A DNA stretch of 64,000 nt from Patescibacteria group bacterium (GTDB lineage: Bacteria; Patescibacteriota; Patescibacteriia; UBA9934), in contig JBAZXR010000001.1 in the NCBI GenBank assembly GCA_041659765.1, positions 595,338 to 659,337 on the forward strand. Direction: 5' to 3'. Positions 26,470 to 41,024 of this stretch are shown here, piece after piece. Within the stretch, counting starts at the first letter, position 1, and every line of letters begins with the position of its first letter. Made by a program: the position numbers and the translations under genes. The notes beneath the pieces were generated by a model. It was not told where the DNA came from. It saw only the letters and a list, made by a program, of their open reading frames with translations, and did no database searches.

Positions 26470-26597
26470 GAATACGTATCAAGAGTCCGTCGAGGGTCCT
26501 GGCCCAATGACACGGCAGCAGCCTACGCAAGTAAGGTGCTAACTCCAGCCCTAACGGGAAAGATAATTATTATCCGACGCCGTCATGGCGTTTTTTT
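26470..26597 (+). promoter_or_regulatory. SAM-I (S-box) riboswitch with terminator, upstream of metK
   Basis: UAUCAAGAG...CGAGGGUCCUGGCCCAAUGACACGGCAGC...GGUGCUAACUCCAGC...GGGAAAGAUAA carries the conserved SAM-I blocks. It is followed by the expression-platform hairpin ACGCC-GUCAU-GGCGU plus U7, which abuts the metK ATG. Confidence 0.85.
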
Positions 26598-27557
26598 ATG
26601 CTCACTCCCCTAATCTATACCGTCGAATCCGTCACAGTTGGTCATCCGGACAAAGTCTGCGATCAGATTTCCGATGCAATTCTCGACGCGTGTGTAAAGC
26701 AAGACCCAAATAGTCGTGTCGCGATTGAAACATTCGGCAGTCATGGACTCTTAGTTCTTGGCGGTGAGATTACGACGAAGGCGAAGGTCGATTATTCAGC
26801 GATCGCGCTCAAGGTCTACAGAGATATTGGTTACACGGATGATCTCAAAGTCCTCGTCCATATCACCGAGCAGTCCCCGGACATCGCCCAAGGCGTAGAC
26901 ACCGGCGGCGCAGGTGACCAAGGAATTATGTACGGCTTTGCCACGGACGAAACGCCAGAGTTCCTCCCCCGCGGCCTGGTGTACGTTCGACAATTAACCG
27001 ACAAACTGACGGAACTCAGAAAATCCGGCGAGGTTGCTTGGTTGAAACCCGACGGTAAGGCGCAGATTACGATGCAAAACGGCAAAGCGACGGTCGTTTT
27101 AATCAGCACACAGCATGACGAAGCCGTCTCTCAGGATGAGATCAGAAAAACCCTCATCGAAAAAGTCATCTACGCCGTCATCCCCGAAGAATATCGCGCA
27201 CTAGGAATGGAAATCCTCACAAACCCCACGGGCAAGTTTGTCATTGGCGGATTTGCTGCAGACACCGGACTCACTGGTCGAAAGTTGGCCGTCGACTCCT
27301 ATGGCGGAATCGTCGCCCACGGCGGTGGTGCTACAGCCGGCAAAGACATGACCAAGGTCGACAGATCAGCCGCCCGCAAAGCCCGCGAAGTCGCCCTCGA
27401 CATTGTTAAATCTGGAAAGGCGCACGAGTGTTTGATTTCCGTGGCCTACGCAATTGGCAAAGCCGAACCCGTCATGCTTTGGGCACAAAACGAAAACCAA
27501 GAAGACATCACCCCATTACTCGCCGGAATTAGTTTCTTGCCGAAGGATCTCCGCTAG
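26598..27557 (+). CDS. metK: S-adenosylmethionine synthetase (short form, 319 aa)
   Basis: ESVTVGHPDKVCDQISDAILDA, GAGDQGIMYGFATDETPEFLP and GGGATAGKD motifs. About 60 aa shorter at the C-terminus than typical bacterial MetK. Confidence 0.9.
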   Translation: MLTPLIYTVESVTVGHPDKVCDQISDAILDACVKQDPNSRVAIETFGSHGLLVLGGEITTKAKVDYSAIALKVYRDIGYTDDLKVLVHITEQSPDIAQGVDTGGAGDQGIMYGFATDETPEFLPRGLVYVRQLTDKLTELRKSGEVAWLKPDGKAQITMQNGKATVVLISTQHDEAVSQDEIRKTLIEKVIYAVIPEEYRALGMEILTNPTGKFVIGGFAADTGLTGRKLAVDSYGGIVAHGGGATAGKDMTKVDRSAARKAREVALDIVKSGKAHECLISVAYAIGKAEPVMLWAQNENQEDITPLLAGISFLPKDLR

Positions 27558-29593: not shown

Positions 29594-30310
29594 CTATACA
29601 ACCTTTCCATTCAGATAATTCGTAGCGATGTCCCGAAAAACTGCCTCAGAGAGTTCGAAGTTGAATAAACGGAAAAGTTCATCTGTGACATTCCTCGCCA
29701 AAAGGAAGATCTCTTCATCATTATTCAATTTATCAATATTCGTAGTTAAAACCGTCTCACTCGTTTTCTCTCTAACGCATAAGTATTCCCAAAAAAGCAT
29801 TCGTGAAGAATTTGCCGACATCAGCCGTCTCCCTTGAAGTTGATGGTGACGAACGGTGATAGATACGGTGGTGTCGCCGGCGATCTTTGCTAAGCGAAAA
29901 AAATTACGGAGATACATCAATGTTTCCGTCACTCGAATGATACGCGTATCGAAAAATACCGCGTTCTCTTTACGCTCATCTTCAAAGATTGTTTTGTATA
30001 AATAGAAAGCCCCGATCGCGTTCCAAGCCCAAAAATCTAAACTTCCTCGGCTTTTGTCGAATACCCGAGCAACGTGACCATCACGATCAGGTTGCGGCTT
30101 AAACTCACTACGATCCAAAAATACAGCAATCGGCCAACCAAACGTCTTAATTGTAGAATCCTTTGCCCAAGTGAGGATATCTCTCTTTTGAAGGCTAAGC
30201 TCATTATCAAAAAATACCTCAACCTCCATAATCCCTCTTTTTTTATCCAACGGAATGGACCTAGCTTCAGTCTTCATTCTATCGAACCACTGTTTTTGAT
30301 TTGCGGTCAT
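29594..30310 (-). CDS. hypothetical protein (238 aa), candidate partner/antitoxin of the upstream RelA/SpoT-domain protein
   Basis: No recognisable domain and no HD motif. Its start overlaps the stop of the RelA/SpoT gene by 4 nt (ATGA). Confidence 0.5.
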   Translation of the reverse strand: MTANQKQWFDRMKTEARSIPLDKKRGIMEVEVFFDNELSLQKRDILTWAKDSTIKTFGWPIAVFLDRSEFKPQPDRDGHVARVFDKSRGSLDFWAWNAIGAFYLYKTIFEDERKENAVFFDTRIIRVTETLMYLRNFFRLAKIAGDTTVSITVRHHQLQGRRLMSANSSRMLFWEYLCVREKTSETVLTTNIDKLNNDEEIFLLARNVTDELFRLFNFELSEAVFRDIATNYLNGKVV

Positions 30311-31071
30311 AAACCATTCTTTTTATCATCCTGCTCTCTAGCCTGCTTTTGTACAAGTTGCCACACCTTTTCACACCCCCTATGAATCAAAGAAATTGCG
30401 TCGCTCAGGTCCTTGGAGTCACCTTTCTCGTCTCTGCCATATAGATATTTCCTATCTTGCACTGCCCAGGCATCACCCAAAACCGTTCTAAGTTGAATTT
30501 CACAATGCAAATCACGCGCGATTCGGTCGTATCTCATTGTCTTGGTTACAGTAAAATGGATTGCGTCATAAAACGGACTTGATCGTCTATCCAGTGTAGC
30601 AGTGTCAGTTTTATTGTTAGTCAATCCTAAAGGAGGTTGATTCCTCATTGGAGTCTTAGTGTCGAATACACCATGTTCATCTTTCGATGTTTTTACACAC
30701 TTACCCTCAAGGCGATATGCCTTCAATTCATTGTCTAATCGGTCAGCAAATTTCCAGAGATCGTCTGCACAATTCAACGTAACCCTTACCCCTGCTATGT
30801 CTTTAAAAGAAAATAGACTTTTATACTTTTTCTTCCCAGAGTTTTTATTCCCATCATTATAATTCTCTAAAATCTTACCGATGTCTTTTATATTCTTTCT
30901 AGCGCCGATTGTCTCCACATCGATTCCAGCCTCCTCACACTCCTCACAGATCTGGTTTACAAACCGTAGAATATTTCTTTGCAACTTTAAATACACAGGA
31001 GCCCAAACCACATATTCCTCTCTAATCTTATCCTCAGCCTTCATAAAACCCGCTTGGGTCAATCGCTCCAA
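30307..31071 (-). CDS. RelA/SpoT-domain nucleotidyltransferase (small alarmone synthetase-like; possible toxSAS)
   Basis: FKDIAGVRVTLNCADDL and HCEIQLRTVLGDAWAVQDRKYLYG match the (p)ppGpp-synthetase fold motifs (D-x-A-G-x-R ... EIQ(I/L)RT). 254 aa. Overlaps the 3' end of the hsdM-S gene by 13 nt. Confidence 0.7.
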   Translation of the reverse strand: MERLTQAGFMKAEDKIREEYVVWAPVYLKLQRNILRFVNQICEECEEAGIDVETIGARKNIKDIGKILENYNDGNKNSGKKKYKSLFSFKDIAGVRVTLNCADDLWKFADRLDNELKAYRLEGKCVKTSKDEHGVFDTKTPMRNQPPLGLTNNKTDTATLDRRSSPFYDAIHFTVTKTMRYDRIARDLHCEIQLRTVLGDAWAVQDRKYLYGRDEKGDSKDLSDAISLIHRGCEKVWQLVQKQAREQDDKKNGL

Positions 31072-33482
31072 AGCTTCGCGATCGTTTCTTTAGTTTTTTG
31101 CTCGTAAATCTCAATCAGTTTCTTGGCAGATTCCATGAGCACACGCTCAGCCTCGATTTTTTCCACTATTTGTTTTTGGATGACAAGAGGTGGAAGAGGG
31201 ATTATTACATTTCTAACGATCTCGGAATTAAGATTTCTAACTACCCCACCCGTAGCGGCGTTCTCGAATTGTTCCACCACAATATCTGAACTCAGAATGT
31301 AGTACAGAAAATCTTTTCCGATCTTCTTAGCGTCTTCGGTTAAGCGCAACCAACCGTCATGAATATATCCGTCAATTTTCATTATATATGGACGCCCAAA
31401 ACTCATTGAGTTTGAAAGTACAAAATCACCAACAACGACTTTACGAGATTTTTCTGCGCCCTCCTTTGTCACTCTCTCCGCCGTATGAGTAATATATTTA
31501 TCAGCATTTTTTGTATCCCCAATTTTTACCCAATTAAATCCATCTGAGCTCTCTGTTATAAACTTATCTATCGGGCGCGGCGATGCCCCTCTTTCGATTT
31601 TACAAACTTCGCTGATTTTTACCTTCTCCCACTCTAAACCGATGTCAATTTTTGGTTTCCAATTTTGAGCGATTTGTTTCGCGCCAGCTATGATACCTGC
31701 GTAGCCGCTCAACTCCGCCACGATTTGCTCTTGAAATTCGAGGGAAGGAAGAGGAATCTTGAATTTAGAATATTGAGATATCCAGTATCGCTTGTGCTCA
31801 CCGGGAGTAAACGGGATATTCTGCATTACGTAATAGACATAGCGTATGTTCGCCAACTCTTTTTTTGTGTGTAGTATCTTCATTGCGGAAGACTTCACCT
31901 TGAACGGAAAATCGACAAATTTAGTTGCGGTTGTAAAATCATCAAATATTATCACTGGCAACCCCTCACGAAAAATACCCGTCGTCTCGTTGGTGTGGCC
32001 CAATACAAACGTCTTCCCTGCAGTGAGAACGGGGGTCAGATATTCATCTTTATAATCAACGGATTCGACCAAATACTTAGTGGGCTGCTCGTAGTCCAGA
32101 ACCTCGCCCAATTCTACCATCGGCCATTTTACGTTCGAGTGATCCATAGCGACCCGATATCGATCCGCGGAGAGATTGTAATCATCATTCTTCGCTATGT
32201 CCGTTTTTTCTACATAAATAACGTGCGCATCTTGAGCTTTCTTTCCCTTGGTCCATTCTCTCAAGATATTGACGGATGCAGGTAGATCGTTCTTGCCGAT
32301 GGGTCTACGAGTAGCACCGAGGTCGAATCCATCGTTTTCTATCTTAATAAATACTATTTCATTGAGCGTTTTGGCCAAAGTCACGTCAAAGAAAAGGATG
32401 CTTGTTTTGACGCCGGCGTATGGATTAAATACACCACCGGGAAGACTCACGACAGCAAAAAGACCATCTTCTACCAGATTCTTTCTTAGTTGTTTATACG
32501 CGCTACCCGACTGAAAGATGACCCCTTCTGGCACAATCACGCCCGCCCGGCCGCCTGGTCGCAAGTGGCTCATGATGTAATCGACGAAAAGCACCTCCGC
32601 ACGGTTAGATTGAACTCCAAATTTAGTATGCGGCTTAATCCCGCCTTTTGGAGACATGAATGGTGGGTTAGCTAAGATCACATCGAACTTATCGTTCCAA
32701 CGCTCGTCGCTGGAAAGAGAGTCATACTGGAAAATCTTTGGATTCTTAAATTGGTGGAGGTATGTATTTACCTGGGCAATACGAACCATTCCAGGATCTA
32801 TATCGTAACCCTCAAAATTATTCATCAGCTTGCGCTTCTCGTCTGGAGTAAGCGGTTTCTCTTTCTTTTCTGGGTCATCCTTACCATCGTGTTGCTCTAA
32901 AATGTGCCTATACGAGCTCACCAAAAATCCACCCGTTCCACAGGCAGGATCGAGGACCTTATCATCTTTGGTTGGGTTAACTACATCTACAATGAAATCG
33001 ATAATGTGACGCGGCGTGCGAAACTGGCCGGCATCACCCTGGCTAGACATGATCGAAAGAAGGTATTCGTATGCGTTACCAAGTTCTTCGGAATGCGAAT
33101 AATCAAAATAGTTAATTTCATTCAAAAACAAACCGAGAACTTCAGGCGATCTGTATGGCAAAAAAGCGGACTTAAAGATTCCACGAAATAATTCTGGTAG
33201 CTGTTTCGCCTCAGAAAACTTCAGAAGCGCTTCAGAATAGAGATTCATGCGCTCCTGGTTGCCCATACGTTGATCCATGAGGCGCGTCCAAGCGTAACGC
33301 TCGAGCTCACCCACGAAGAAGGACGGATCTCCGCCAGCCTTAATAGCAGCCTGATCCATGTCATCCATGAACTTATAGATAAGTGCGTTGGTGATCTGGT
33401 CAATTTGAGATGTTGGATTTGGCACTACGCCTACCAAAACCTGGCGAGCAGCATCAATGTGGCGTTTTGTTTCGGTATTCAT
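31059..33482 (-). CDS. hsdM: type I restriction-modification fused methyltransferase-specificity protein (HsdM-HsdS fusion)
   Basis: N-terminal N6-adenine MTase (FRTPRHIIDFIVDVV...VLDPACGTGGFLV; ILANPPF) is followed by two target-recognition modules. Each module ends in an HsdS conserved spacer (IPLPSLEFQEQIVAELS and IIPLPPLVIQKQIVEKIEAE). 807 aa. Confidence 0.85.
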   Translation of the reverse strand: MNTETKRHIDAARQVLVGVVPNPTSQIDQITNALIYKFMDDMDQAAIKAGGDPSFFVGELERYAWTRLMDQRMGNQERMNLYSEALLKFSEAKQLPELFRGIFKSAFLPYRSPEVLGLFLNEINYFDYSHSEELGNAYEYLLSIMSSQGDAGQFRTPRHIIDFIVDVVNPTKDDKVLDPACGTGGFLVSSYRHILEQHDGKDDPEKKEKPLTPDEKRKLMNNFEGYDIDPGMVRIAQVNTYLHQFKNPKIFQYDSLSSDERWNDKFDVILANPPFMSPKGGIKPHTKFGVQSNRAEVLFVDYIMSHLRPGGRAGVIVPEGVIFQSGSAYKQLRKNLVEDGLFAVVSLPGGVFNPYAGVKTSILFFDVTLAKTLNEIVFIKIENDGFDLGATRRPIGKNDLPASVNILREWTKGKKAQDAHVIYVEKTDIAKNDDYNLSADRYRVAMDHSNVKWPMVELGEVLDYEQPTKYLVESVDYKDEYLTPVLTAGKTFVLGHTNETTGIFREGLPVIIFDDFTTATKFVDFPFKVKSSAMKILHTKKELANIRYVYYVMQNIPFTPGEHKRYWISQYSKFKIPLPSLEFQEQIVAELSGYAGIIAGAKQIAQNWKPKIDIGLEWEKVKISEVCKIERGASPRPIDKFITESSDGFNWVKIGDTKNADKYITHTAERVTKEGAEKSRKVVVGDFVLSNSMSFGRPYIMKIDGYIHDGWLRLTEDAKKIGKDFLYYILSSDIVVEQFENAATGGVVRNLNSEIVRNVIIPLPPLVIQKQIVEKIEAERVLMESAKKLIEIYEQKTKETIAKLWSD

Positions 33483-33484
33483 AC

Positions 33485-36052
33485 TTATCCTAAATTGGTT
33501 AGCTGATAAGCGTAGTCACGGACATATTGCGGAACTGTAGTTTTGAACCCGTTAAGTTTTTGATAGTCATCGAAATCAAATGAACCACGAACATTAAATT
33601 CGGCCGGCTTGTTCTGCTTTACAATGTCGCGAACCTCTTCGTCCACAATATACGCCTTAAAGAAGTTTTTGGTTGGTTGGTAGTGTTCCTGGTCTACTTC
33701 ATAAATATCCATGAACTTCTGCCACTCTGACTCCAGAACGTCATCCTTCATCTCGAATGTATCTTTTTCACCAAATGCTACCTGCAAAAACTCTCGAACG
33801 GTGATCCGGCGATCAACACCGAAAATTTTACGGATCTTATCAAGGTTAAGGAAGTATTTTGGCTTGTCGAAAATCTGCTTTTTCGCAAAATCCTCGGCGC
33901 CTTCGGTGTCGCCATTACTCCAGAGATTCTTAAGCGTTTCATTGCCTAGCACATCTTCCTCAACAGCACGCTTAAAACCTTCACGATCAATTCGCATGCC
34001 TTCCTCACCGACTGGAGTCTCCGAAATAGTGGCCAGCTCGTCAGAAGTGGCCAAATCCACGATCCCCTTAAATATCTTCTTGCCATTCTCATCTACAAAT
34101 TCTCCCTGCGCTAATTCCTTACCCGTTGCGGTCTTTTTCTCCTCTGCCTTCTTAACTACCGGAAGCTTGATCTTCTCGTCGTACTTGAATTCTTTTTCAA
34201 AATACTCGCACGTGGCAAAGAAATCGAAAAACTTAAACTTGTCTTTAGCTACCGCGATAACATCACTGTCTTTATAATCCTTATGTTCAAACAAATATGT
34301 TCTAGTTCCACGTCCCTTTATCTGAACAAAATCTGCCGGACTAAAAACCGGACGCATTAGACCAATGTTGAGAAGATCCTGACAGTCGTATCCCGTGGTC
34401 ATCATGCCGACAGTAACAACAACGCGTGTCTTGCCCGTATCATATCCCTCCGGCTCCTTTGCATGACCGCCGAGGCGGTTATTCGCAAAATTAATGGTCA
34501 TTTGTTGTGCATCTTGCACCTGAGAAGTAACCTGCATGGCAAAATCAGATTCTCCGTATTGTTTTGGCCACTTTTCAAACGCTAATCTATTGAGAATATT
34601 AGTGACTCGCGCTGCATGTTTCTGTGAGACACAAAAGACAATGGACTTGCCGAATAATTGAACGCCCAATTTTTCTGCCACTGGATCAAAGATGCCGTTA
34701 TCAACAAATGCCTTACACATGGCAATATTCGTTTCTTCGTTGAAAAACTTTCGCTCGTAGTGCTTTGCGCTATATGTCTCGTCGACCGTTTCTCCACTTT
34801 CAGCTGCAGTGTGAACGCTATACCCTTTTTCCGACAACAACTCAGTCGTGATTTCCGTTCTTGCGTCTACTATCACGGGATTAATCAAATACCCATCTTT
34901 TACACCAGACAACAAATCATATCTAAATGTAGGCTCGCCGGATTCGCAGCCGAAGGTCTTGTACGTGCTTAAAAGCACACGTCGCTCATATTCACGCTGA
35001 GTATCCGCGTCCTCAGCGTCTACGCCCTTTAAGTAGTCCTTCGGAGTCGCGGTTAAACCGAGCTTATAGCCAACAAAGTATTCGAATACTGCCCGACTAT
35101 TACCACCAATTGAACGGTGAGCTTCGTCAGAAATCACTAGCTCAAAATCTGTGGGTGAAAATTCTTTCTTATACCGATCACCTGCCATGAAAGATTGAAT
35201 GGTCGAAACCACTACACTCGCATTCTGCCAAGAATCACGGCTCTCTTTATAGATAACACTTCTAAAATCCTTTCCAAGATACTGAGAAAATGCCTTCTGC
35301 GCCTGGTCCTCAAGCTCGATTCTGTCCACTAAGAATAAAACACGACGAGCATTGCCAGATTTCAGGAAAAGCTTAATAACCGCCGCAGAAATAAGTGTCT
35401 TGCCGGTACCCGTCGCCATTTCAAACAAGAATCTTTGTTTTCCCTCCTTGGCTGACTCTTGCAACGCCTTGATTGCCTGTACTTGATACGGACGAAGCTG
35501 TTTAAGATTATTATTTCTCAAAAATTCGCTTCGCGTTTCCGCATCCTTAAATGCTGGATCCTTAAAAAATCCAGGCATCTGCGTATCTACTACATAGTTC
35601 CCATCAACTAACGTTTTTGCTAGTTCGTCAGGATTCGGGGTGTATTTCTCATATTGTGTAATGGAATCCTGAGTGGGAAAACGAGAAATAGTATCAGGAT
35701 TTCCTTGCTTTGTATCCCAAAAATAGTGAATATTCCCATTTGAAAGAATGATAAATCTCGCTCCAACATTCCGAGCATAATTCCTCGCCTGTTCTTTTGC
35801 TGACAAAGGATCAACAGACTCTTTTTTAGCCTCAACCACAACTAATGGCCTACCGTCTTTATCTAAAAGAAGAAAATCTATAAAACCATGAGCCTCATAC
35901 TCAAAATCATCGCCAAGATCAGCGTATTTCACGCCTGGCTCCAGCTGAATATTCGCCCTGCCCTTCTTCTTATCATCCTCAAACCGCCAGCCTGATTCTT
36001 CGAGGAGTTTGTTAATCTTTATTCTAGCCTTAGCCTCTTTTGCATTTGCCAT
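33485..36052 (-). CDS. hsdR: type I restriction enzyme R subunit (N-terminal PD-(D/E)XK nuclease + SF2 helicase)
   Basis: Nuclease motif GFIDFLLLDKDGRPLVVVEAKK. Helicase motifs ATGTGKT, VISDEAHRS and QIKGRGTR. The stop overlaps the hsdM-S start (ATGA). Confidence 0.85.
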   Translation of the reverse strand: MANAKEAKARIKINKLLEESGWRFEDDKKKGRANIQLEPGVKYADLGDDFEYEAHGFIDFLLLDKDGRPLVVVEAKKESVDPLSAKEQARNYARNVGARFIILSNGNIHYFWDTKQGNPDTISRFPTQDSITQYEKYTPNPDELAKTLVDGNYVVDTQMPGFFKDPAFKDAETRSEFLRNNNLKQLRPYQVQAIKALQESAKEGKQRFLFEMATGTGKTLISAAVIKLFLKSGNARRVLFLVDRIELEDQAQKAFSQYLGKDFRSVIYKESRDSWQNASVVVSTIQSFMAGDRYKKEFSPTDFELVISDEAHRSIGGNSRAVFEYFVGYKLGLTATPKDYLKGVDAEDADTQREYERRVLLSTYKTFGCESGEPTFRYDLLSGVKDGYLINPVIVDARTEITTELLSEKGYSVHTAAESGETVDETYSAKHYERKFFNEETNIAMCKAFVDNGIFDPVAEKLGVQLFGKSIVFCVSQKHAARVTNILNRLAFEKWPKQYGESDFAMQVTSQVQDAQQMTINFANNRLGGHAKEPEGYDTGKTRVVVTVGMMTTGYDCQDLLNIGLMRPVFSPADFVQIKGRGTRTYLFEHKDYKDSDVIAVAKDKFKFFDFFATCEYFEKEFKYDEKIKLPVVKKAEEKKTATGKELAQGEFVDENGKKIFKGIVDLATSDELATISETPVGEEGMRIDREGFKRAVEEDVLGNETLKNLWSNGDTEGAEDFAKKQIFDKPKYFLNLDKIRKIFGVDRRITVREFLQVAFGEKDTFEMKDDVLESEWQKFMDIYEVDQEHYQPTKNFFKAYIVDEEVRDIVKQNKPAEFNVRGSFDFDDYQKLNGFKTTVPQYVRDYAYQLTNLG

Positions 36053-36699: not shown

Positions 36700-38256
36700 T
36701 TACTGCGTCTTCTCACCTGTGAGTAAAAAGTCTAACTCGTTGTCAAAGATTCTTTTAAATTCCGATCGTGGATCCGCATGATCAATAATCTGTTTTGCAA
36801 CTAGATGGGCGTATTTATCTTTAATTATTCCCTCAGGATAATTAATCCTGTGATCTACGCTGCATCCAGAAAGTTCAGCATCGAAATCATTCTTCATTTC
36901 ATTATCGTAGTAATCTTCAATCTGCTTCCTTGATAATACAACGAAACGTTTGGCCGCGATATCCACGTTCATCTTCTGCATCTTCTTGTATTCGGGAGTA
37001 TTTTGGTATTCAGGATCAGTGGGGCTATCAATGATAATGCTGTATTTATCGTAGTAAAATGGGTTGCACTTAAGGAGTGTCTGCTCGGTGTTGAACCTTC
37101 GAATGTGTTCTGCAAAAAGTGGTACATTATTTGCCCCTGCGGCTGAAATAAACCCCCAATTCTTCACGATCCCTTTCTTCTTTAATGCGTCAAGCAATTT
37201 TTGAAGACTAGCCTCCTCGAGAAGACAATAATTTTCAACGTAGCCAAAATCCGTCTCGTCAGCCCCCACCATCTTTGCAGCAATATAGTTAACGCTCTGA
37301 TCATCGAACCCGTCGTTGCCTTTCCCCGGATTACCGTGCTCGTCTACGGTTTGTCCGCCATCAATTAAATATACCTTTTGATCTCTTGGAAAACTTCCGG
37401 ATTTCGAAACAATAAATGGCGAATGTGTAGTTACGAAAAACATTGCGTTATTGACTGATGATAAATCGTTTAAGATTTTTGGAACCAATTTTTGATACTC
37501 AGGGTGAAGAGATGTTTCCGGTTCCTCGATGCAGATGATGTGAAAATAATTTGGGACCTCCGGTCTATCGTTCCTTTTGTAGGACTCCAAATCATTGATC
37601 AATTTCTGCAAATTGAAATAAATCGAAATAAGGCGGATTTGTCCAGACGACAATGCCTTGAGATTAATTCTAGAGCCATCTTCAAGAAGTAACTGAATTG
37701 ATTCAACGCCCGCTGCCGATCTCATTACGTTCGTCACGGGAGAGTTGGTGTATCGATGTCTATTAATGAAATCTCTTAGATCACGTTCTAAAATGAAACT
37801 CGGCAACTTATCAAGATTGATCGCGAGACCCTCCTTGTGGGGCAACGTTCGTCTTGTGTCACTGAAATCGAAATATCGGGCAATATCTCCTAGGGGGAGA
37901 GTTGTGGCCCCTCCTTCAGCCTTCTGCATAACAGCTTTCCCATTTTTAATGAGTGAGGGATCCAGATGCACGTTTACTGTATTGCCTATTCCTTCCGGCT
38001 CGTCATATGAATACGAGAAGTTGAAGTCTGGATGGAATACTTCGAGAGGATCGCCAAAGGCCTCGTCGATGTTGGCGTCACTACGATTGTAATATTGGGA
38101 ATTAAAAGCCATCATGATCAATTCGAGAACCGAGCTTTTTCCTGCGCCGTTTTTTCCAATTAAATAATTGACCTTCTTTAATTTTGTAATTTCAAATGAT
38201 GAAGCCTTGATATTTTTATACCCAGAGATACTTAATTTGCTCAACATAAACTCCAT
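36700..38256 (-). CDS. ABC-type AAA ATPase of the OLD/AAA_15-21 family with a possible C-terminal Toprim-like domain (putative anti-phage defence)
   Basis: Walker A LIGKNGAGKSSVLE, ABC signature-like ALSSGQIRLISIY, Walker B IICIEEPETSLHP, H-loop VTTHSP. The C-terminal ~200 aa carry Toprim-like acidic residues (CLLEEAS ... IIIDSPTDPE). Confidence 0.6.
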   Translation of the reverse strand: MEFMLSKLSISGYKNIKASSFEITKLKKVNYLIGKNGAGKSSVLELIMMAFNSQYYNRSDANIDEAFGDPLEVFHPDFNFSYSYDEPEGIGNTVNVHLDPSLIKNGKAVMQKAEGGATTLPLGDIARYFDFSDTRRTLPHKEGLAINLDKLPSFILERDLRDFINRHRYTNSPVTNVMRSAAGVESIQLLLEDGSRINLKALSSGQIRLISIYFNLQKLINDLESYKRNDRPEVPNYFHIICIEEPETSLHPEYQKLVPKILNDLSSVNNAMFFVTTHSPFIVSKSGSFPRDQKVYLIDGGQTVDEHGNPGKGNDGFDDQSVNYIAAKMVGADETDFGYVENYCLLEEASLQKLLDALKKKGIVKNWGFISAAGANNVPLFAEHIRRFNTEQTLLKCNPFYYDKYSIIIDSPTDPEYQNTPEYKKMQKMNVDIAAKRFVVLSRKQIEDYYDNEMKNDFDAELSGCSVDHRINYPEGIIKDKYAHLVAKQIIDHADPRSEFKRIFDNELDFLLTGEKTQ

Positions 38257-38302
38257 TTGATCTTACGCGTTATTAAAAACCGCCACGCAAAGTGACGGTT
38301 TT

Positions 38303-38405
38303 TGGAGGGCCCGGAAGGAATCGAACCTACTTCGGGGCATTGCAGTGCTGACATCGAGGATATCGTCACTGTCAGTGCCTCTTGTCCGCCACTGGACTCG
38401 GGCCC
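38303..38405 (-). tRNA. tRNA-like gene, 103 nt, with a ~29-nt insertion in the anticodon region; one parse gives tRNA-Val(GAC)
   Basis: Minus strand: 7-bp acceptor GGGCCCG/CGGGCCC, discriminator U, encoded CCA, and a canonical T-arm GTAGG-TTCGATT-CCTTC (GGTTCGATTCC). The D-arm is GTCC-AGTGGC-GGAC. Between them, CUGACA pairs with UGUCAG across a 16-nt loop. Removing GTGACGATATCCTCGATGTCAGCACTGCA leaves a 74-nt cloverleaf with anticodon loop CUGACAA. Confidence 0.55.
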
Positions 38406-38514
38406 ATATACCAAGGCTAACACGCATCAATCTTGAGGTCGAGCGACGGAAACGGGGATAACTTATGAAACGCATAAGGGGGCTCCGGGATGACTTCCTG
38501 CTACCATTCTCCCT

Positions 38515-39054
38515 ATGCCCCTCCCTCTCTTCACCTTAAAACGCCACCCCCGCTCCCGAGGCGTTCGTATTCGTATTCGTATTGGGGCTGATGGGCAGTG
38601 TACGGTCACGGCGCATAAACGAGTCCCCGTCTGGATGATCAACCAATTTGTAGAGCAAAAGTCCGCTTGGATCCAAGAACACGTCGCCAAAGCCAAAAGC
38701 AGGCCGCAGAGTTTGCTTCATGGGGGTACGAAGGCGGATTACACTCGCCTAAAAGTACGCGCGCTTGAGCTGGCGCATGCAAGGCTCGAATATTTCAATG
38801 CAGTCTACAAGCTCACCTACAAAAAAGTTTCTATTCGCAATCAAAAAACCCGCTGGGGCAGTTGTACAAGTAATGGGGCGTTGAGTTTTAATTATCGGAT
38901 CGTGCAACTGTCGGCGGAACAGGTTGATTACATCGTTGTTCATGAACTCTGCCACCTGGCGCAGATGAATCACTCGGTGAAGTTTTGGAGGTTGGTTGAG
39001 AAAACTATTCCAGACCACAAACGACTCCGAGCGACGATTAGGAACGCAAAGTAA
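38515..39054 (+). CDS. DUF45/YgjP-family zinc metallohydrolase (M48/SprT-like HExxH)
   Basis: VVHELCHLAQMNHS (HExxH) and a typical DUF45 N-terminus (RIRIRIGADGQCTVTAHKRVP...WI). Proteins of this family are often encoded beside type I R-M systems. Contains an internal (CGTATT)x3 microsatellite. Confidence 0.75.
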   Translation: MPLPLFTLKRHPRSRGVRIRIRIGADGQCTVTAHKRVPVWMINQFVEQKSAWIQEHVAKAKSRPQSLLHGGTKADYTRLKVRALELAHARLEYFNAVYKLTYKKVSIRNQKTRWGSCTSNGALSFNYRIVQLSAEQVDYIVVHELCHLAQMNHSVKFWRLVEKTIPDHKRLRATIRNAK

Positions 39055-39696: not shown

Positions 39697-40314
39697 CTAC
39701 TTAATCGGCGTTGTCCGCAAATCCGGGGTAACCTCCAAACACGCATCACGACATTGTAAAGGAATTTCCCTTTTTAACATAACATCGACCTGATCCCTAG
39801 TATAGATGTACTCATTGTTCGAGTCCTCGAGTCGGCTCTCGATACGTTGATCCAAAAGACGCTGAAACTCGATCGACTCCGGCGGAGGATTCAGTGGCGC
39901 GAATCGCAATAAGCATACTGATCCAATCCCCAACAAAATTAAAACACAAAACAAAATCATTCTTACGTCAGACAAACCTTCGATTTTCTTGATCAAAACA
40001 AGATCCATCACCAGAATAAACAACGTCATCGCACAAAAAATTAATACAATAAACAAACCCGCACTCCAGGCGTCCGCGATTCGACCAAAAATCTGAATAC
40101 TGACTGAAACAAAAGTAAAAAGTGCGACAAAAACTCCCAGTGCTTCAATCGACCTTATCTGCCTCTCATCCGCGCGCTTATCGTAGTCATCGATCTTGGC
40201 AACAAGGTCCGCTCGGAGAGTTTGAAAATCGTTCAAGGAAGGGACGTTGCCGGATCCAGCCTGGGATGCGACACCACGCTGAGGGTACGCGCTGCCTATT
40301 CCAAAGTTGGCCAT
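39697..40314 (-). CDS. hypothetical membrane protein (205 aa)
   Basis: Central pair of TM helices. No family recognised. Confidence 0.45.
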   Translation of the reverse strand: MANFGIGSAYPQRGVASQAGSGNVPSLNDFQTLRADLVAKIDDYDKRADERQIRSIEALGVFVALFTFVSVSIQIFGRIADAWSAGLFIVLIFCAMTLFILVMDLVLIKKIEGLSDVRMILFCVLILLGIGSVCLLRFAPLNPPPESIEFQRLLDQRIESRLEDSNNEYIYTRDQVDVMLKREIPLQCRDACLEVTPDLRTTPIK

Positions 40315-41024
40315 AATGTCTTTTCAATCTCTTTAAGCTTAAAACTTTCTTTGGATTGCTCTATAAACTTTCTTATTGAAAAATTAGAAAATTTGGACGA
40401 CAAATTCTCCGTCGGATTTGAGTTAAAATCGCGGGTGATCTGGATGCCCGCCACCTCAGAGGGTTCGCCCGAAAGTCTCGCACTCATCCTTTCCAAAGTA
40501 ACGAAATTATTTACATTAAAGTCGAACTCATCAAATTTAACGCTCCTGACATACCTCACAAAAACTTCAACAAACGCGGATTCTGATTCAATGCCGAATA
40601 GATCTCTAAATCCCGGAACAATTGCCTGCTCAATAACTTTATCCTGACTTTGTTCCGGAATAAAAAAACGAGAAACGAACCCAACCCGTTTGATCGGCAG
40701 AGATTCGGCTCCGCAAAAAGCAATCAATTTCTCGGACAATTCGGTGATTGTCTTCATCTTAGCCTCAAACGGCTGCCTCCCTTCCCCGGCCACAAATAAA
40801 TCAATTCGCCCTCGCGCAATATTGCAACCGTATATGCCATCTTTGGAACTCAGCTGAACCACCGGGATATCGCTAAGCTCAATAGGGATAGGAAGCGCTA
40901 TCAGATTCCCATCCATTATTCCACCCAGTGCTTCATTAAGACGCTGATAACGATCTTCCGGGCGATCTATTAAACGATCTAGAAATAATGCCAGCTGGGT
41001 GTTAATGAGAATCTCATCCTTCAT
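40296..41024 (-). CDS. hypothetical protein (242 aa)
   Basis: Overlaps the downstream gene by 19 nt. Lies 16 nt downstream of the pheT stop on the same strand. Confidence 0.5.
   Translation of the reverse strand: MKDEILINTQLALFLDRLIDRPEDRYQRLNEALGGIMDGNLIALPIPIELSDIPVVQLSSKDGIYGCNIARGRIDLFVAGEGRQPFEAKMKTITELSEKLIAFCGAESLPIKRVGFVSRFFIPEQSQDKVIEQAIVPGFRDLFGIESESAFVEVFVRYVRSVKFDEFDFNVNNFVTLERMSARLSGEPSEVAGIQITRDFNSNPTENLSSKFSNFSIRKFIEQSKESFKLKEIEKTLWPTLE

What the first reader, a model, noticed from the sequence alone, without database searches (positions are those of the whole stretch)
38303..38405. tRNA-like gene with canonical acceptor/T-arm but a 29-nt insertion pairing with the anticodon loop
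The 103-nt element ends in an encoded CCA and has a perfect 7-bp acceptor stem and a textbook T-arm (GGTTCGATTCC). No standard anticodon arm can be drawn. Instead CUGACA (candidate anticodon-loop nucleotides) pairs with UGUCAG across a 16-nt loop. Excising about 29 nt (GUGACGAUAUCCUCGAUGUCAGCACUGCA) leaves a 74-nt cloverleaf with loop C-U-GAC-A-A, i.e. tRNA-Val(GAC). Intron-anticodon pairing of this kind is typical of archaeal/eukaryal protein-spliced tRNA introns, not of bacterial group I tRNA introns (over 200 nt). The alternatives are a disrupted pseudo-tRNA, a tRNA-Sec-like species, or a novel small bacterial tRNA intron. It also marks the edge of the defence island.
Basis: seen in the sequence. 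Interest (0 to 1): 0.7.

Follow-up and report, generated by a model that had tools for sequence, protein, structure and literature searches.

The report
Disrupted tRNA-like gene in defence hotspot
A one-off tRNA-shaped gene in a Patescibacteria genome has a closed 17-bp hairpin where its anticodon loop should be; it is most likely a non-decoding tRNA relic that arrived with mobile defence genes, not a new kind of bacterial tRNA intron.

Summary
The 103-nt element is real. It lies on the minus strand (38303-38405) and has a perfect 7-bp acceptor stem, a D-arm with GG, a GGUUCGAUUCC T-arm, an encoded CCA and a terminator-like hairpin. No 7-nt anticodon loop exists. Positions 27-70 fold into a very stable 17-bp rod (z = -4.8; every helix p >= 0.96).

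The intron reading is not supported:
- No bulge-helix-bulge motif bounds any excision that yields a valid tRNA, although a control archaeal-type intron was recovered.
- 29 nt is far too short for a group I intron.
- The "anticodon" depends on where one cuts: Val-GAC, Cys-GCA or Ala.
- The discriminator is U73, which does not fit Val.

ARAGORN at default settings and Rfam do not call it a tRNA.

The element is a singleton. It is absent from 185,579 species genomes, JGI metagenomes, viral contigs, 80 related R-M islands and three sister genomes. In the sisters, homology stops ~86 nt upstream of it. It is the first gene of strain-specific cargo (RNA, PtuA/AriA-like ATPase, HsdR, HsdM-S) in a variable defence hotspot downstream of pheT.

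Best reading: a tRNA-derived relic co-transferred with that cargo (confidence ~0.5). A functional tRNA mimic cannot be excluded.

The parts
38303..38405 (-). tRNA-like gene, 103 nt (GGGCCCG...CGGGCCC-U-CCA)
   Evidence: Sequence. MFE -44.8 kcal/mol, z = -3.9. Not called by ARAGORN at default settings or with -i, nor by Rfam at E <= 10. Scores 130.7 bits against its own model, while ordinary tRNAs score 19-31 bits.
38399..38405 (-). Acceptor stem, 5' strand (element positions 1-7). It pairs with 38307-38313 (positions 93-99). Followed by discriminator U at 38306 and encoded CCA at 38303-38305.
   Evidence: Seven Watson-Crick pairs; p(1:99) = 0.996.
38384..38397 (-). D-arm GUCC-AGUGGC-GGAC (positions 9-22). 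Only one nucleotide (A8) separates it from the acceptor stem, so U8 is missing. The D-loop is short (6 nt) but contains GG.
   Evidence: p(9:22) = 0.992. Ordinary tRNAs need a 1-nt insertion after position 7 to align to the element's model.
38336..38379 (-). Rod-like 'anticodon arm' (positions 27-70). Helices of 4+2+5+6 bp are separated by a C.A mismatch, a 1-nt bulge and a 2x2 internal loop. The apex is a CUC triloop at 38356-38358.
   Evidence: -19.7 kcal/mol, 83% of the ensemble, z = -4.83, 0/200 shuffles as good. All helices have p >= 0.96.
38373..38378 (-). 6-nt direct repeat GCACUG, copy 1 (positions 28-33). Copy 2 is at 38343-38348 (positions 58-63). Together they flank the inserted palindrome.
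   Evidence: Read from the sequence; coordinates computed. The repeat explains why several different deletions give tRNA-like products.
38341..38369 (-).
   Evidence: Deleting it gives an ARAGORN Val(GAC) call. Both proposed splice sites lie inside paired helices of the rod and are not in BHB bulges.
38314..38330 (-). T-arm GUAGG-UUCGAUU-CCUUC (positions 76-92), with one U.U mismatch
   Evidence: Sequence. It is the only GGTTCGANTCC in the window.
38275..38303 (-). Terminator-like hairpin (AAAAACCGUCAC-UUUGC-GUGGCGGUUUUU) directly after the CCA
   Evidence: -15.8 kcal/mol, z = -4.0. The consensus scanner did not list it, probably because the A/U tracts pair with each other; that explanation is my reading.
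38406..38492 (-). 86-nt strain-specific leader between the homology breakpoint and the RNA 5' end. No consensus sigma-70 promoter was found in it.
   Evidence: Alignment with sister loci L150 and L151 loses homology at about 38492. The promoter scan found 0 sites.
36700..38256 (-). Downstream neighbour: PtuA/AriA/OLD-type ABC ATPase (AAA_15/AAA_21) with an unassigned C-terminal domain
   Evidence: Pfam, PADLOC, NCBIfam and PDB sequence matches. The C-terminal domain has low pLDDT and no Pfam hit. Homologues at 46-50% identity have no tRNA-like sequence upstream.
31059..36052 (-). Mobile type I R-M module: HsdR (33485-36052) plus a fused HsdM-S (31059-33482)
   Evidence: 80 loci at 55-83% aa identity across CPR phyla, and HsdM-S is adjacent in 71 of them.
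38515..39054 (+). YgjP-like metallopeptidase gene, divergent from the RNA. It is the last segment shared with sister genomes.
   Evidence: Pfam E = 2e-41. ~74% nt identity to L150 and L151.

Best explanation
The element is a tRNA-derived gene that can no longer decode. It keeps the parts of a tRNA that make the L-shaped body: the acceptor stem with CCA, the D-loop GG and the T-loop. Its anticodon loop has been replaced by a roughly 27-31-nt imperfect palindrome flanked by a 6-nt direct repeat (GCACUG). As a result the anticodon stem continues as a closed 17-bp rod capped by a CUC triloop.

It is not part of the lineage's core tRNA set. It is the first gene of a strain-specific block (RNA, PtuA/AriA-like ATPase, orf107, HsdR, HsdM-S, RelA/SpoT-like gene) sitting in a variable defence hotspot downstream of pheT. 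The same HsdR/HsdM-S module in other CPR genomes lies just downstream of ordinary tRNA genes far more often than chance would give. The most economical history is therefore that a tRNA gene flanking the module in a donor genome was carried along during transfer. It was redundant in the recipient and was inactivated by the hairpin insertion or duplication.

Shown: the anatomy, the fold, the absence of splice motifs, the ambiguous isotype, the singleton status and the breakpoint position.
Inferred: co-transfer from a donor, redundancy, and lack of function. Whether the element is transcribed is unknown.
For: 1. tRNA body but no anticodon loop; the rod dominates the ensemble.
2. Several departures from tRNA consensus besides the insertion. 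Position 8 is A and the acceptor-D spacer is 1 nt, so ordinary tRNAs need an inserted base there. There is a U.U mismatch in the T-stem, a 6-nt D-loop and an A.C mismatch in the upper anticodon stem. ARAGORN at default settings and with -i gives no call, and Rfam gives no tRNA, tRNA-Sec or tmRNA hit even at E <= 10.
3. A 6-nt direct repeat flanks the palindrome, as expected from an insertion or duplication event. Deletions therefore yield Val, Cys or Ala products with no unique solution.
4. Singleton status:
   - 0 hits for the acceptor + D-stem + T-loop pattern in 185,579 species genomes.
   - 66 metagenome and viral loci share the 3' half, and all are ordinary tRNAs or fragments.
   - No viral hit for the 5' half or the rod, and no plasmid, phage or E. 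coli hit.
   - The covariance model and a structural scan over 1.36-1.74 Mb of related loci recover only the element itself.
5. Three sister genomes (PheT 73-83% identical) keep the pheS-pheT-orf105 synteny. The two 83% sisters also keep the YgjP-like gene. None has a tRNA or tRNA-like gene in the region, and homology stops ~86 nt upstream of the element.
6. 9 of 67 related HsdR loci have an ordinary tRNA within 1 kb upstream on the same strand, against 1.25 expected (P = 7e-6).
7. No integrase and no att-type repeat of the 3' end lie nearby, so the element is not a live integration site.
Against: - The acceptor stem, CCA, T-loop and D-loop GG are flawless, and the rod is unusually stable. A freely decaying pseudogene would not need either, although a recent event would look the same.
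- A terminator-like hairpin follows the CCA directly, and the gene has the same orientation as the ATPase that starts about 50 nt after it. That looks like an organised transcription unit.
- I could not show redundancy.
- No donor or ancestral uninterrupted copy was found, so the co-transfer history is inference.
Confidence: 0.5

Rival explanations
1. Functional, non-decoding tRNA mimic. The RNA is made, processed by RNase P/Z like a tRNA and kept stable by its tRNA body. The rod removes the anticodon so that it cannot enter translation. It would act in the defence island, for example as a decoy, inhibitor or cofactor for a tRNA-targeting effector such as the adjacent PtuA/AriA-type ATPase or the RelA/SpoT-like enzyme at 30307-31071.
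For: - Intact acceptor/CCA/T/D body plus a very stable rod.
- Its own terminator-like hairpin.
- Same orientation as, and immediately upstream of, an ATPase whose characterised relatives belong to the PARIS and retron-Septu systems.
- Paper abstracts listed link phage tRNAs to escape from a retron system (10.1101/2023.03.15.532788).
- A RelA/SpoT-like gene is in the same cargo.
Against: - ATPase homologues at 50% and 46% identity have no tRNA-like sequence in the ~145 nt available upstream.
- None of the 80 related R-M islands carries the ATPase or such an RNA.
- No homologue was found anywhere, so there is no covariation or conservation to show selection.
- The ATPase C-terminal domain could not be assigned.
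- No consensus promoter was found.
- No such RNA-protein pairing turned up in the literature searches.
Confidence: 0.22
2. A genuine tRNA (Val-GAC, or Cys-GCA) carrying a new kind of short bacterial intervening sequence. The sequence would be removed by an unknown endonuclease/ligase pair or by an acquired archaeal-type system.
For: - Removing positions 37-65 leaves a product that ARAGORN accepts as Val(GAC), with the cut at canonical position 37/38.
- Relaxed intron mode gives Cys(GCA), which would fit the U73 discriminator (identity rule from my knowledge).
- Patescibacteria are unusually rich in tRNA introns (PMC13011429).
Against: - The control L031 was solved correctly by the same scan.
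- The intron-anticodon pairing has p ~ 0.
- There is no unique product.
- U73 contradicts Val.
- The spliced products still have a 6-bp or mismatched anticodon stem, a 3-nt variable loop and no U8.
- Known bacterial tRNA introns are group I, 184-894 bp, and BHB introns are unreported in bacteria (PMC13011429).
- In 95 complete Patescibacteria genomes the undetected tRNAs were Asn and Asp, not Val or Cys.
- The element is absent from sister genomes.
Confidence: 0.07
3. A decoding or otherwise specialised tRNA in its full-length form, such as a tRNA-Sec-like or allo-tRNA-like species, or one that reads with the apex loop.
For: Its length (103 nt) is in the range of tRNA-Sec and class II tRNAs. 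The apex carries CUC.
Against: - The acceptor/T arrangement is 7/5, not 8/5 or 9/4.
- The extra length is in the anticodon arm, not the variable arm.
- The apex is a 3-nt loop closed by C-G (p = 0.98), with no U33 and no purine-37 context.
- No UCA anticodon loop can be drawn in the arm (my reading of the sequence).
- No Rfam tRNA-Sec or tmRNA hit and no ARAGORN tmRNA call.
Confidence: 0.02
4. The palindrome acts at the DNA level, for example as a recombination site or operator hairpin, and the tRNA-like flanks are incidental.
For: It lies exactly where strain-specific DNA begins. The rod is a 44-bp imperfect inverted repeat.
Against: - The palindrome is nested precisely inside a complete tRNA body with CCA, which chance would not give.
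- There is only one copy in the window.
- No recombinase gene lies nearby.
Confidence: 0.04

Closest known systems
tRNA genes and tRNA-derived relics flanking genomic or defence islands
   Same: It has a tRNA-shaped gene at the junction between conserved and strain-specific DNA, with the cargo on its 3' side. The same R-M module lies next to ordinary tRNAs in 9 of 67 related loci.
   Different: There is no integrase and no att repeat of the 3' end. The gene is absent from sister genomes rather than being their resident tRNA. The disruption is a neat hairpin that extends the anticodon stem, not a truncation.
Archaeal/eukaryal tRNAs with BHB introns at 37/38 (control example found here: L031, tRNA-Val(UAC) with a 13-nt intron)
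   Same: It has a short insertion in the anticodon region of an otherwise tRNA-like gene, and one possible excision falls at 37/38.
   Different: No bulge-helix-bulge or bulge-helix-loop motif bounds a productive excision. The favoured fold is a continuous helix. The host is a bacterium, and BHB introns are unreported in bacteria (PMC13011429).
Group I introns in Patescibacteria tRNA genes (PMC13011429)
   Same: Same phylum. These are tRNA genes that standard tools miss because of an insertion in the anticodon loop.
   Different: Group I introns are 184-894 bp ribozymes that affect Asn, Asp and some other tRNAs. Here the insertion is ~29 nt with no ribozyme core and no Rfam hit.
tRNA-like domain of tmRNA and other tRNA mimics, in which the acceptor/T body is kept and the anticodon arm is replaced by a long helix
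   Same: The architecture matches: acceptor stem with CCA, T-arm, D-loop contacts, and a long helix in place of the anticodon stem-loop.
   Different: There is no G3.U70, no tag reading frame, no pseudoknots, it is only 103 nt long, and neither ARAGORN nor Rfam calls a tmRNA.
Phage-encoded tRNAs that counter tRNA-cleaving defence systems (PARIS, retron-Septu PtuAB)
   Same: A tRNA-shaped RNA lies in the genomic neighbourhood of a PtuA/AriA-family ATPase.
   Different: Those are decoding-competent phage tRNAs, whereas this one is host-island encoded with no anticodon loop. No co-occurrence with the ATPase family was found.

Membership tests
Canonical bacterial tRNA | 7-bp acceptor stem, discriminator and CCA end | tested here: met
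   GGGCCCG/CGGGCCC, U73, encoded CCA.
Canonical bacterial tRNA | T-arm with a G53-T54-T55-C56-R57-A58 loop | tested here: met
   GGUUCGAUUCC is present. The stem has one U.U mismatch.
Canonical bacterial tRNA | 5-bp anticodon stem closing a 7-nt loop with U33 and a purine at 37 | tested here: not met
   Positions 27-70 form a closed 17-bp rod with a 3-nt loop.
Canonical bacterial tRNA | Recognised by tRNA gene finders and covariance models | tested here: not met
   ARAGORN at default settings and with -i finds nothing. Rfam gives no tRNA hit at E <= 10.
Canonical bacterial tRNA | U8 and a two-nucleotide acceptor-D spacer | tested here: not met
   Only A8 separates the two stems. Ordinary tRNAs align to the model with one inserted base there.
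tRNA with an archaeal-type BHB intron | Two 3-nt bulges separated by a 4-bp helix (or the relaxed BHL form) placing both splice sites, with a valid tRNA after excision | tested here: not met
   Twelve candidate motifs, none giving an ARAGORN-valid tRNA. The control L031 gave exactly one correct solution.
tRNA with an archaeal-type BHB intron | Splicing endonuclease (EndA) and RtcB-type ligase encoded in the genome | not testable with these tools
   Only 64 kb of the 897-kb contig was available.
tRNA with a group I intron | Ribozyme core (P1-P9), typically >= 184 nt, matching Rfam RF00028 | tested here: not met
   The insertion is ~29 nt with no Rfam hit. Length range is from PMC13011429.
tRNA-Sec | 8/5 (13-bp) acceptor/T domain, 6-bp D-stem, long variable arm, UCA anticodon | tested here: not met
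   The arrangement is 7/5, the D-stem is 4 bp, the variable region is 3-5 nt, and there is no UCA loop. No Rfam or ARAGORN call.
tmRNA (including the tRNA-like domain) | G3.U70, tag ORF, pseudoknots, detection by ARAGORN -m or Rfam | tested here: not met
   The pair is G3-C. ARAGORN -m finds nothing and Rfam gives no hit.
tRNA-derived relic / pseudo-tRNA in a horizontally acquired segment | tRNA body with a lesion that abolishes decoding | tested here: met
tRNA-derived relic / pseudo-tRNA in a horizontally acquired segment | Not conserved in close relatives, and located in strain-specific DNA | tested here: met
   Absent from L150, L151 and L152, with the breakpoint at about 38492. No homologue in any collection.
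tRNA-derived relic / pseudo-tRNA in a horizontally acquired segment | Redundant: intact isoacceptors exist elsewhere in the genome | not testable with these tools
Defence-system ncRNA partnered with a PtuA/AriA-type ATPase | Co-occurrence of the RNA with the protein family across genomes | tested here: not met
   No tRNA-like sequence lies upstream of the 50% and 46% homologues. The ATPase is absent from the 80 related islands. Only two close homologues had usable context, so the test is thin.

The most novel reading that the evidence does not exclude
The element is a working tRNA mimic. It would be a stand-alone RNA that keeps the tRNA body and CCA end but seals off the anticodon with a rod, and it would be expressed together with the adjacent PtuA/AriA/OLD-type ATPase as a decoy, antitoxin or sensor for a tRNA-directed defence effector. 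A less likely version is that it is the first short, non-group-I intervening sequence in a bacterial tRNA.
Probability: 0.12. Interest if true: 0.75.

Novelty: new variant of a known kind. Interest (0 to 1): 0.3.

Why it matters
If the best reading is right, the finding is mostly a caution. A short palindromic insertion can make a tRNA relic look like an intron-bearing tRNA, and the inferred "anticodon" then depends on where one chooses to cut.

The finding also documents two things about this Patescibacteria lineage. It has a variable defence hotspot downstream of pheT. And a widely shared HsdR/HsdM-S module tends to sit next to tRNA genes, which says something about how defence genes move in these tiny genomes.

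It would matter more if the RNA proved to be expressed and functional. A sealed-anticodon tRNA mimic next to a PtuA/AriA-type ATPase would be a new kind of RNA component in anti-phage defence.

Tried and rejected
- **Standard and intron-mode tRNA calling.** ARAGORN finds nothing at default stringency. Relaxed mode gives Cys(GCA) with a non-canonical intron position.
- **Rfam.** A gathering-threshold scan of the whole window finds only a SAM riboswitch. An E <= 10 scan around the element gives only noise hits.
- **Repeat-element idea.** The palindrome occurs once in the window.
- **Integration-site idea.** There is no integrase, and no repeat of the tRNA 3' end within 3 mismatches.
- **Sequence homologues.**
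  - None in E. coli genomes, plasmids or phages.
  - None in 185,579 species genomes with a structure-aware pattern.
  - The 3'-half pattern in metagenome and viral contigs returned only ordinary tRNAs and fragments.
  - No viral hit for the 5' half or the rod.
- **Association with the ATPase.** Only 9 homologues exist in the protein database. The two close ones lack the RNA upstream.
- **Association with the R-M module.** 80 related islands were searched by ARAGORN, a custom structural scan and a covariance model, and none has it.
- **Synteny in sister genomes.** The element is absent.
- **LOOT RNA lead in L112.** It is an unrelated four-hairpin RNA and is not present in the window.
- **Isotype by similarity to real tRNAs.** Uninformative, because the hits were selected for sharing the 3' half.
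- **One scan.** My regex was wrong and missed the positive control, so I discarded it and repeated it correctly.
- **Structure of the ATPase C-terminal domain.** The model had pLDDT 30-50, so no fold search was run. A permissive Pfam scan also gave nothing.
- **Exact-protein look-ups.** For PheS and for P0001 they found nothing. L001 is just the same strain.
- **One energy value.** The 'cloverleaf+rod' value of -46.6 kcal/mol counted the U.U mismatch as a pair and is not valid, so I did not use it.
Full report
**What is there.** The element lies on the minus strand at 38303-38405. Its sequence is GGGCCCGAGUCCAGUGGCGGACAAGAGGCACUGACAGUGACGAUAUCCUCGAUGUCAGCACUGCAAUGCCCCGAAGUAGGUUCGAUUCCUUCCGGGCCCUCCA.

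It has the following tRNA-like parts:
- a perfect 7-bp acceptor stem, discriminator U and an encoded CCA;
- a D-arm, GUCC-AGUGGC-GGAC;
- a T-arm, GUAGG-UUCGAUU-CCUUC, with one U.U mismatch.

A 12-bp terminator-like hairpin follows the CCA directly (-15.8 kcal/mol, z = -4.0). The whole element folds at -44.8 kcal/mol (z = -3.9, 0 of 200 shuffles as good).

**The arm.** Positions 27-70 do not form an anticodon stem-loop. They form one nearly continuous rod of 4+2+5+6 base pairs. The helices are separated by a C.A mismatch, a single bulged A and a 2x2 internal loop, and the rod is capped by a CUC triloop.
- Taken alone, the rod has -19.7 kcal/mol, makes up 83% of the ensemble, and scores z = -4.83.
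- Every rod helix has pairing probability >= 0.96.
A structure containing it scores -32.0 kcal/mol, about 13 kcal/mol worse than the MFE.

**Is it a tRNA with an intron?** ARAGORN finds nothing at default stringency, with or without intron search. Only with a lowered threshold does it propose tRNA-Cys(GCA), with a 31-nt intron at a non-canonical place. Rfam gives no tRNA, tRNA-Sec or tmRNA match even at E <= 10.

I deleted every segment of 8-47 nt from the arm, 980 deletions in all. ARAGORN called 37 of the products as tRNAs, with anticodons GAC, GCA, UGC and GGC. The isotype therefore depends on the chosen cut. One reason is a 6-nt direct repeat, GCACUG, at positions 28-33 and 58-63, which flanks the palindrome.

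The discriminator is U73. By textbook identity rules (my knowledge) that fits Cys or Gly and not Val, which uses A73.

I then wrote a formal scan for bulge-helix-bulge motifs and their relaxed forms. A tRNA gene found by accident in a groundwater contig (L031) served as a positive control. There, exactly one of 13 candidates gave a valid tRNA: Val-UAC after removing a 13-nt intron at 37/38. In our element none of 12 candidates did.

A group I intron is excluded by size. Bacterial tRNA group I introns are 184-894 bp, and BHB introns have not been reported in bacteria (PMC13011429). The same paper reports that in 95 complete Patescibacteria genomes the tRNAs missed by standard tools were Asn and Asp. 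It reports no gap in Val or Cys that would call for a cryptic gene.

**Other departures from a tRNA.**
- Only one nucleotide (A8) separates the acceptor stem from the D-stem. Ordinary tRNAs need an inserted base there to align to the element's covariance model.
- The D-loop has 6 nt.
- The upper anticodon stem has an A.C mismatch.
- The best "spliced" cloverleaf has a 6-bp anticodon stem and a 3-nt variable loop.

**Where it sits.** The source is a Patescibacteria MAG, on an 897-kb contig. On the element's strand the gene order is:

pheS, pheT, orf242, orf205, orf105, orf92, [YgjP-like gene on the opposite strand], 86-nt leader, tRNA-like gene, terminator, PtuA/AriA/OLD-type ABC ATPase, orf107, HsdR, fused HsdM-S, a RelA/SpoT-like gene, orf238, then DUF2779 and metK with its SAM riboswitch.

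GC content falls from about 0.53 to 0.40-0.48 between roughly 29 and 41 kb. No integrase and no att-type repeat of the tRNA 3' end are present.

**Relatives.** PheT homologues at 83%, 83%, 73% and 66% identity lie on long contigs.
- All four keep the synteny ClpB-M48-LemA-PGM-RseP-pheS-pheT. In the three with DNA available, an orf105 homologue follows pheT.
- After that each carries different defence cargo: Zeta/Fic/Shedu, DUF3800/RhuM/SLFN, HEPN/type ISP R-M, or HsdR/HsdM-S. In two of the four the cargo is seen to end at a DUF2779 gene, followed by metK in one of them.
- This region is therefore a variable defence hotspot.
- The YgjP-like gene is shared with the two 83% relatives at ~74% nucleotide identity. 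Homology runs through its start codon and about 25 nt beyond, then stops at about window 38492, 86 nt before the element.
- None of the three relatives with available DNA has any tRNA or tRNA-like sequence in the region, even with relaxed intron-mode ARAGORN.

The element is thus the first gene of the strain-specific segment. It is neither a core tRNA nor the outer edge of the hotspot.

**Does it travel with a neighbour?**
- *The ATPase.* It has only nine homologues in the large protein database. The two close ones (50% and 46% identity) have no tRNA-like sequence in the ~145 nt available upstream.
- *HsdR.* It has many close relatives. I retrieved 80 loci at 55-83% identity from many CPR phyla and a few other phyla, and the fused HsdM-S gene is adjacent in 71 of them. 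None carries the ATPase, orf107 or the YgjP-like gene.
- *Searches within those loci.* ARAGORN, a structural scan (T-loop plus 7-bp acceptor stem plus oversized body) and a covariance model built from the element all recover only ordinary tRNAs. These score 19-31 bits with the rod deleted, against 130.7 bits for the element itself.

One pattern did emerge. In 9 of 67 loci with enough upstream sequence, an ordinary tRNA gene (Asn, Glu, Gln, Trp, Ser or Leu) lies within 1 kb upstream of HsdR. All nine are on the same strand, against 1.25 expected (Poisson P = 7e-6).

**Wider searches for the RNA.**
- The acceptor + D-stem + T-loop pattern found nothing in 185,579 species genomes.
- The 3' half matched 57 metagenome and 9 viral loci. 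All are ordinary 71-73-nt tRNAs, tmRNA ends or att fragments.
- The 5' half and the rod found nothing in viral contigs.
- E. coli genomes, plasmids and phages gave nothing.
- The only other copy is a read-assembly contig from the same strain.

**Interpretation.** The evidence fits best with a tRNA-derived gene that came in with the strain-specific cargo and cannot decode, because a short palindromic insertion or duplication flanked by a 6-nt direct repeat has sealed its anticodon arm. The related R-M module's habit of sitting just downstream of tRNA genes gives a plausible route: a donor's flanking tRNA was carried along. Co-transfer, redundancy and lack of function are inferences. I could not see the rest of the genome, and there are no expression data.

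The intact body, the CCA end, the terminator and the very stable rod keep open a functional, non-decoding tRNA mimic linked to the defence genes (about 0.2). That idea has no comparative support so far, and the ATPase C-terminal domain could not be assigned. A new short bacterial tRNA intron is unlikely (about 0.07). tRNA-Sec-like, tmRNA-like and DNA-level readings are essentially excluded.

**Verdict.** The feature is real and its shape is unusual. It is most probably a disrupted tRNA relic in a defence hotspot, and the intron interpretation is not supported. Interest is modest (0.3). It would rise sharply only if the RNA proved to be expressed and to act with the neighbouring ATPase.

Noticed in passing
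window 26473-26569 (+), with metK at 26598-27557: A SAM-I riboswitch (Rfam RF00162, 56.3 bits) lies directly upstream of a SAM synthetase gene in this Patescibacteria genome. The metK ORF is short (319 aa) and matches only the first 86 of 138 positions of the C-terminal domain profile.
   Followed up: no
window 29594-31071 (-): A 254-aa protein with a RelA/SpoT nucleotidyltransferase domain (Pfam 27.1 bits, just above the cut-off of 27) and an unannotated 238-aa ORF lie just downstream of hsdM-S inside the strain-specific cargo. This may be a toxSAS-type toxin module. Characterised members of that class modify tRNA CCA ends (my knowledge).
   Followed up: partly
window ~28.9-41.0 kb; L150, L151 and L152 12.4-22 kb: The interval from downstream of pheT to DUF2779-metK is a variable defence hotspot in this CPR lineage. 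Four relatives (66-83% PheT identity) carry entirely different cargo there: Zeta/Fic/Shedu, DUF3800/RhuM/SLFN, HEPN/type ISP R-M, or HsdR/HsdM-S.
   Followed up: yes
L070-L149 (80 loci); window 31059-36052: A two-gene type I R-M module (HsdR plus a fused HsdM-S) is shared at 55-83% aa identity across many CPR phyla and some non-CPR MAGs. In 9 of 67 loci it lies within 1 kb downstream of an ordinary tRNA gene on the same strand (P ~ 7e-6).
   Followed up: yes
L031 1563-1648: A low-GC groundwater contig carries an archaeal-type tRNA-Val(UAC) with a 13-nt intron at 37/38 bounded by a bulge-helix-loop motif. Default ARAGORN misses it, and ARAGORN intron mode mis-calls it Ser(UGA).
   Followed up: partly
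L112 4931-5044 (+): A LOOT RNA (Rfam RF03000, 74.2 bits) in a Saccharibacteria MAG lies immediately after homologues of the window's orf242 and orf205 and ~5 kb upstream of the related HsdR. It is not present in the window.
   Followed up: partly
window 39697-41024 (-): orf242 and orf205 have no Pfam, PHROG or PADLOC hit. They are inserted between pheT and the conserved orf105 relative to the three sister genomes. Their only homologues in the held loci are in L112, again near the HsdR module.
   Followed up: partly
window 38566-38585: A CGAATA x3 tandem repeat lies inside the 5' part of the YgjP-like gene. The sister genomes have one unit fewer, and the read-assembly contig L001 breaks at this repeat.
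   Followed up: partly
L012, L047/L053, L083, L093, L051: Ordinary tRNA genes in these loci are preceded by partial duplicates of their own 5' ends. L051 carries three copies of a tRNA-Met 3' part. These look like att-type footprints of integration events.
   Followed up: no
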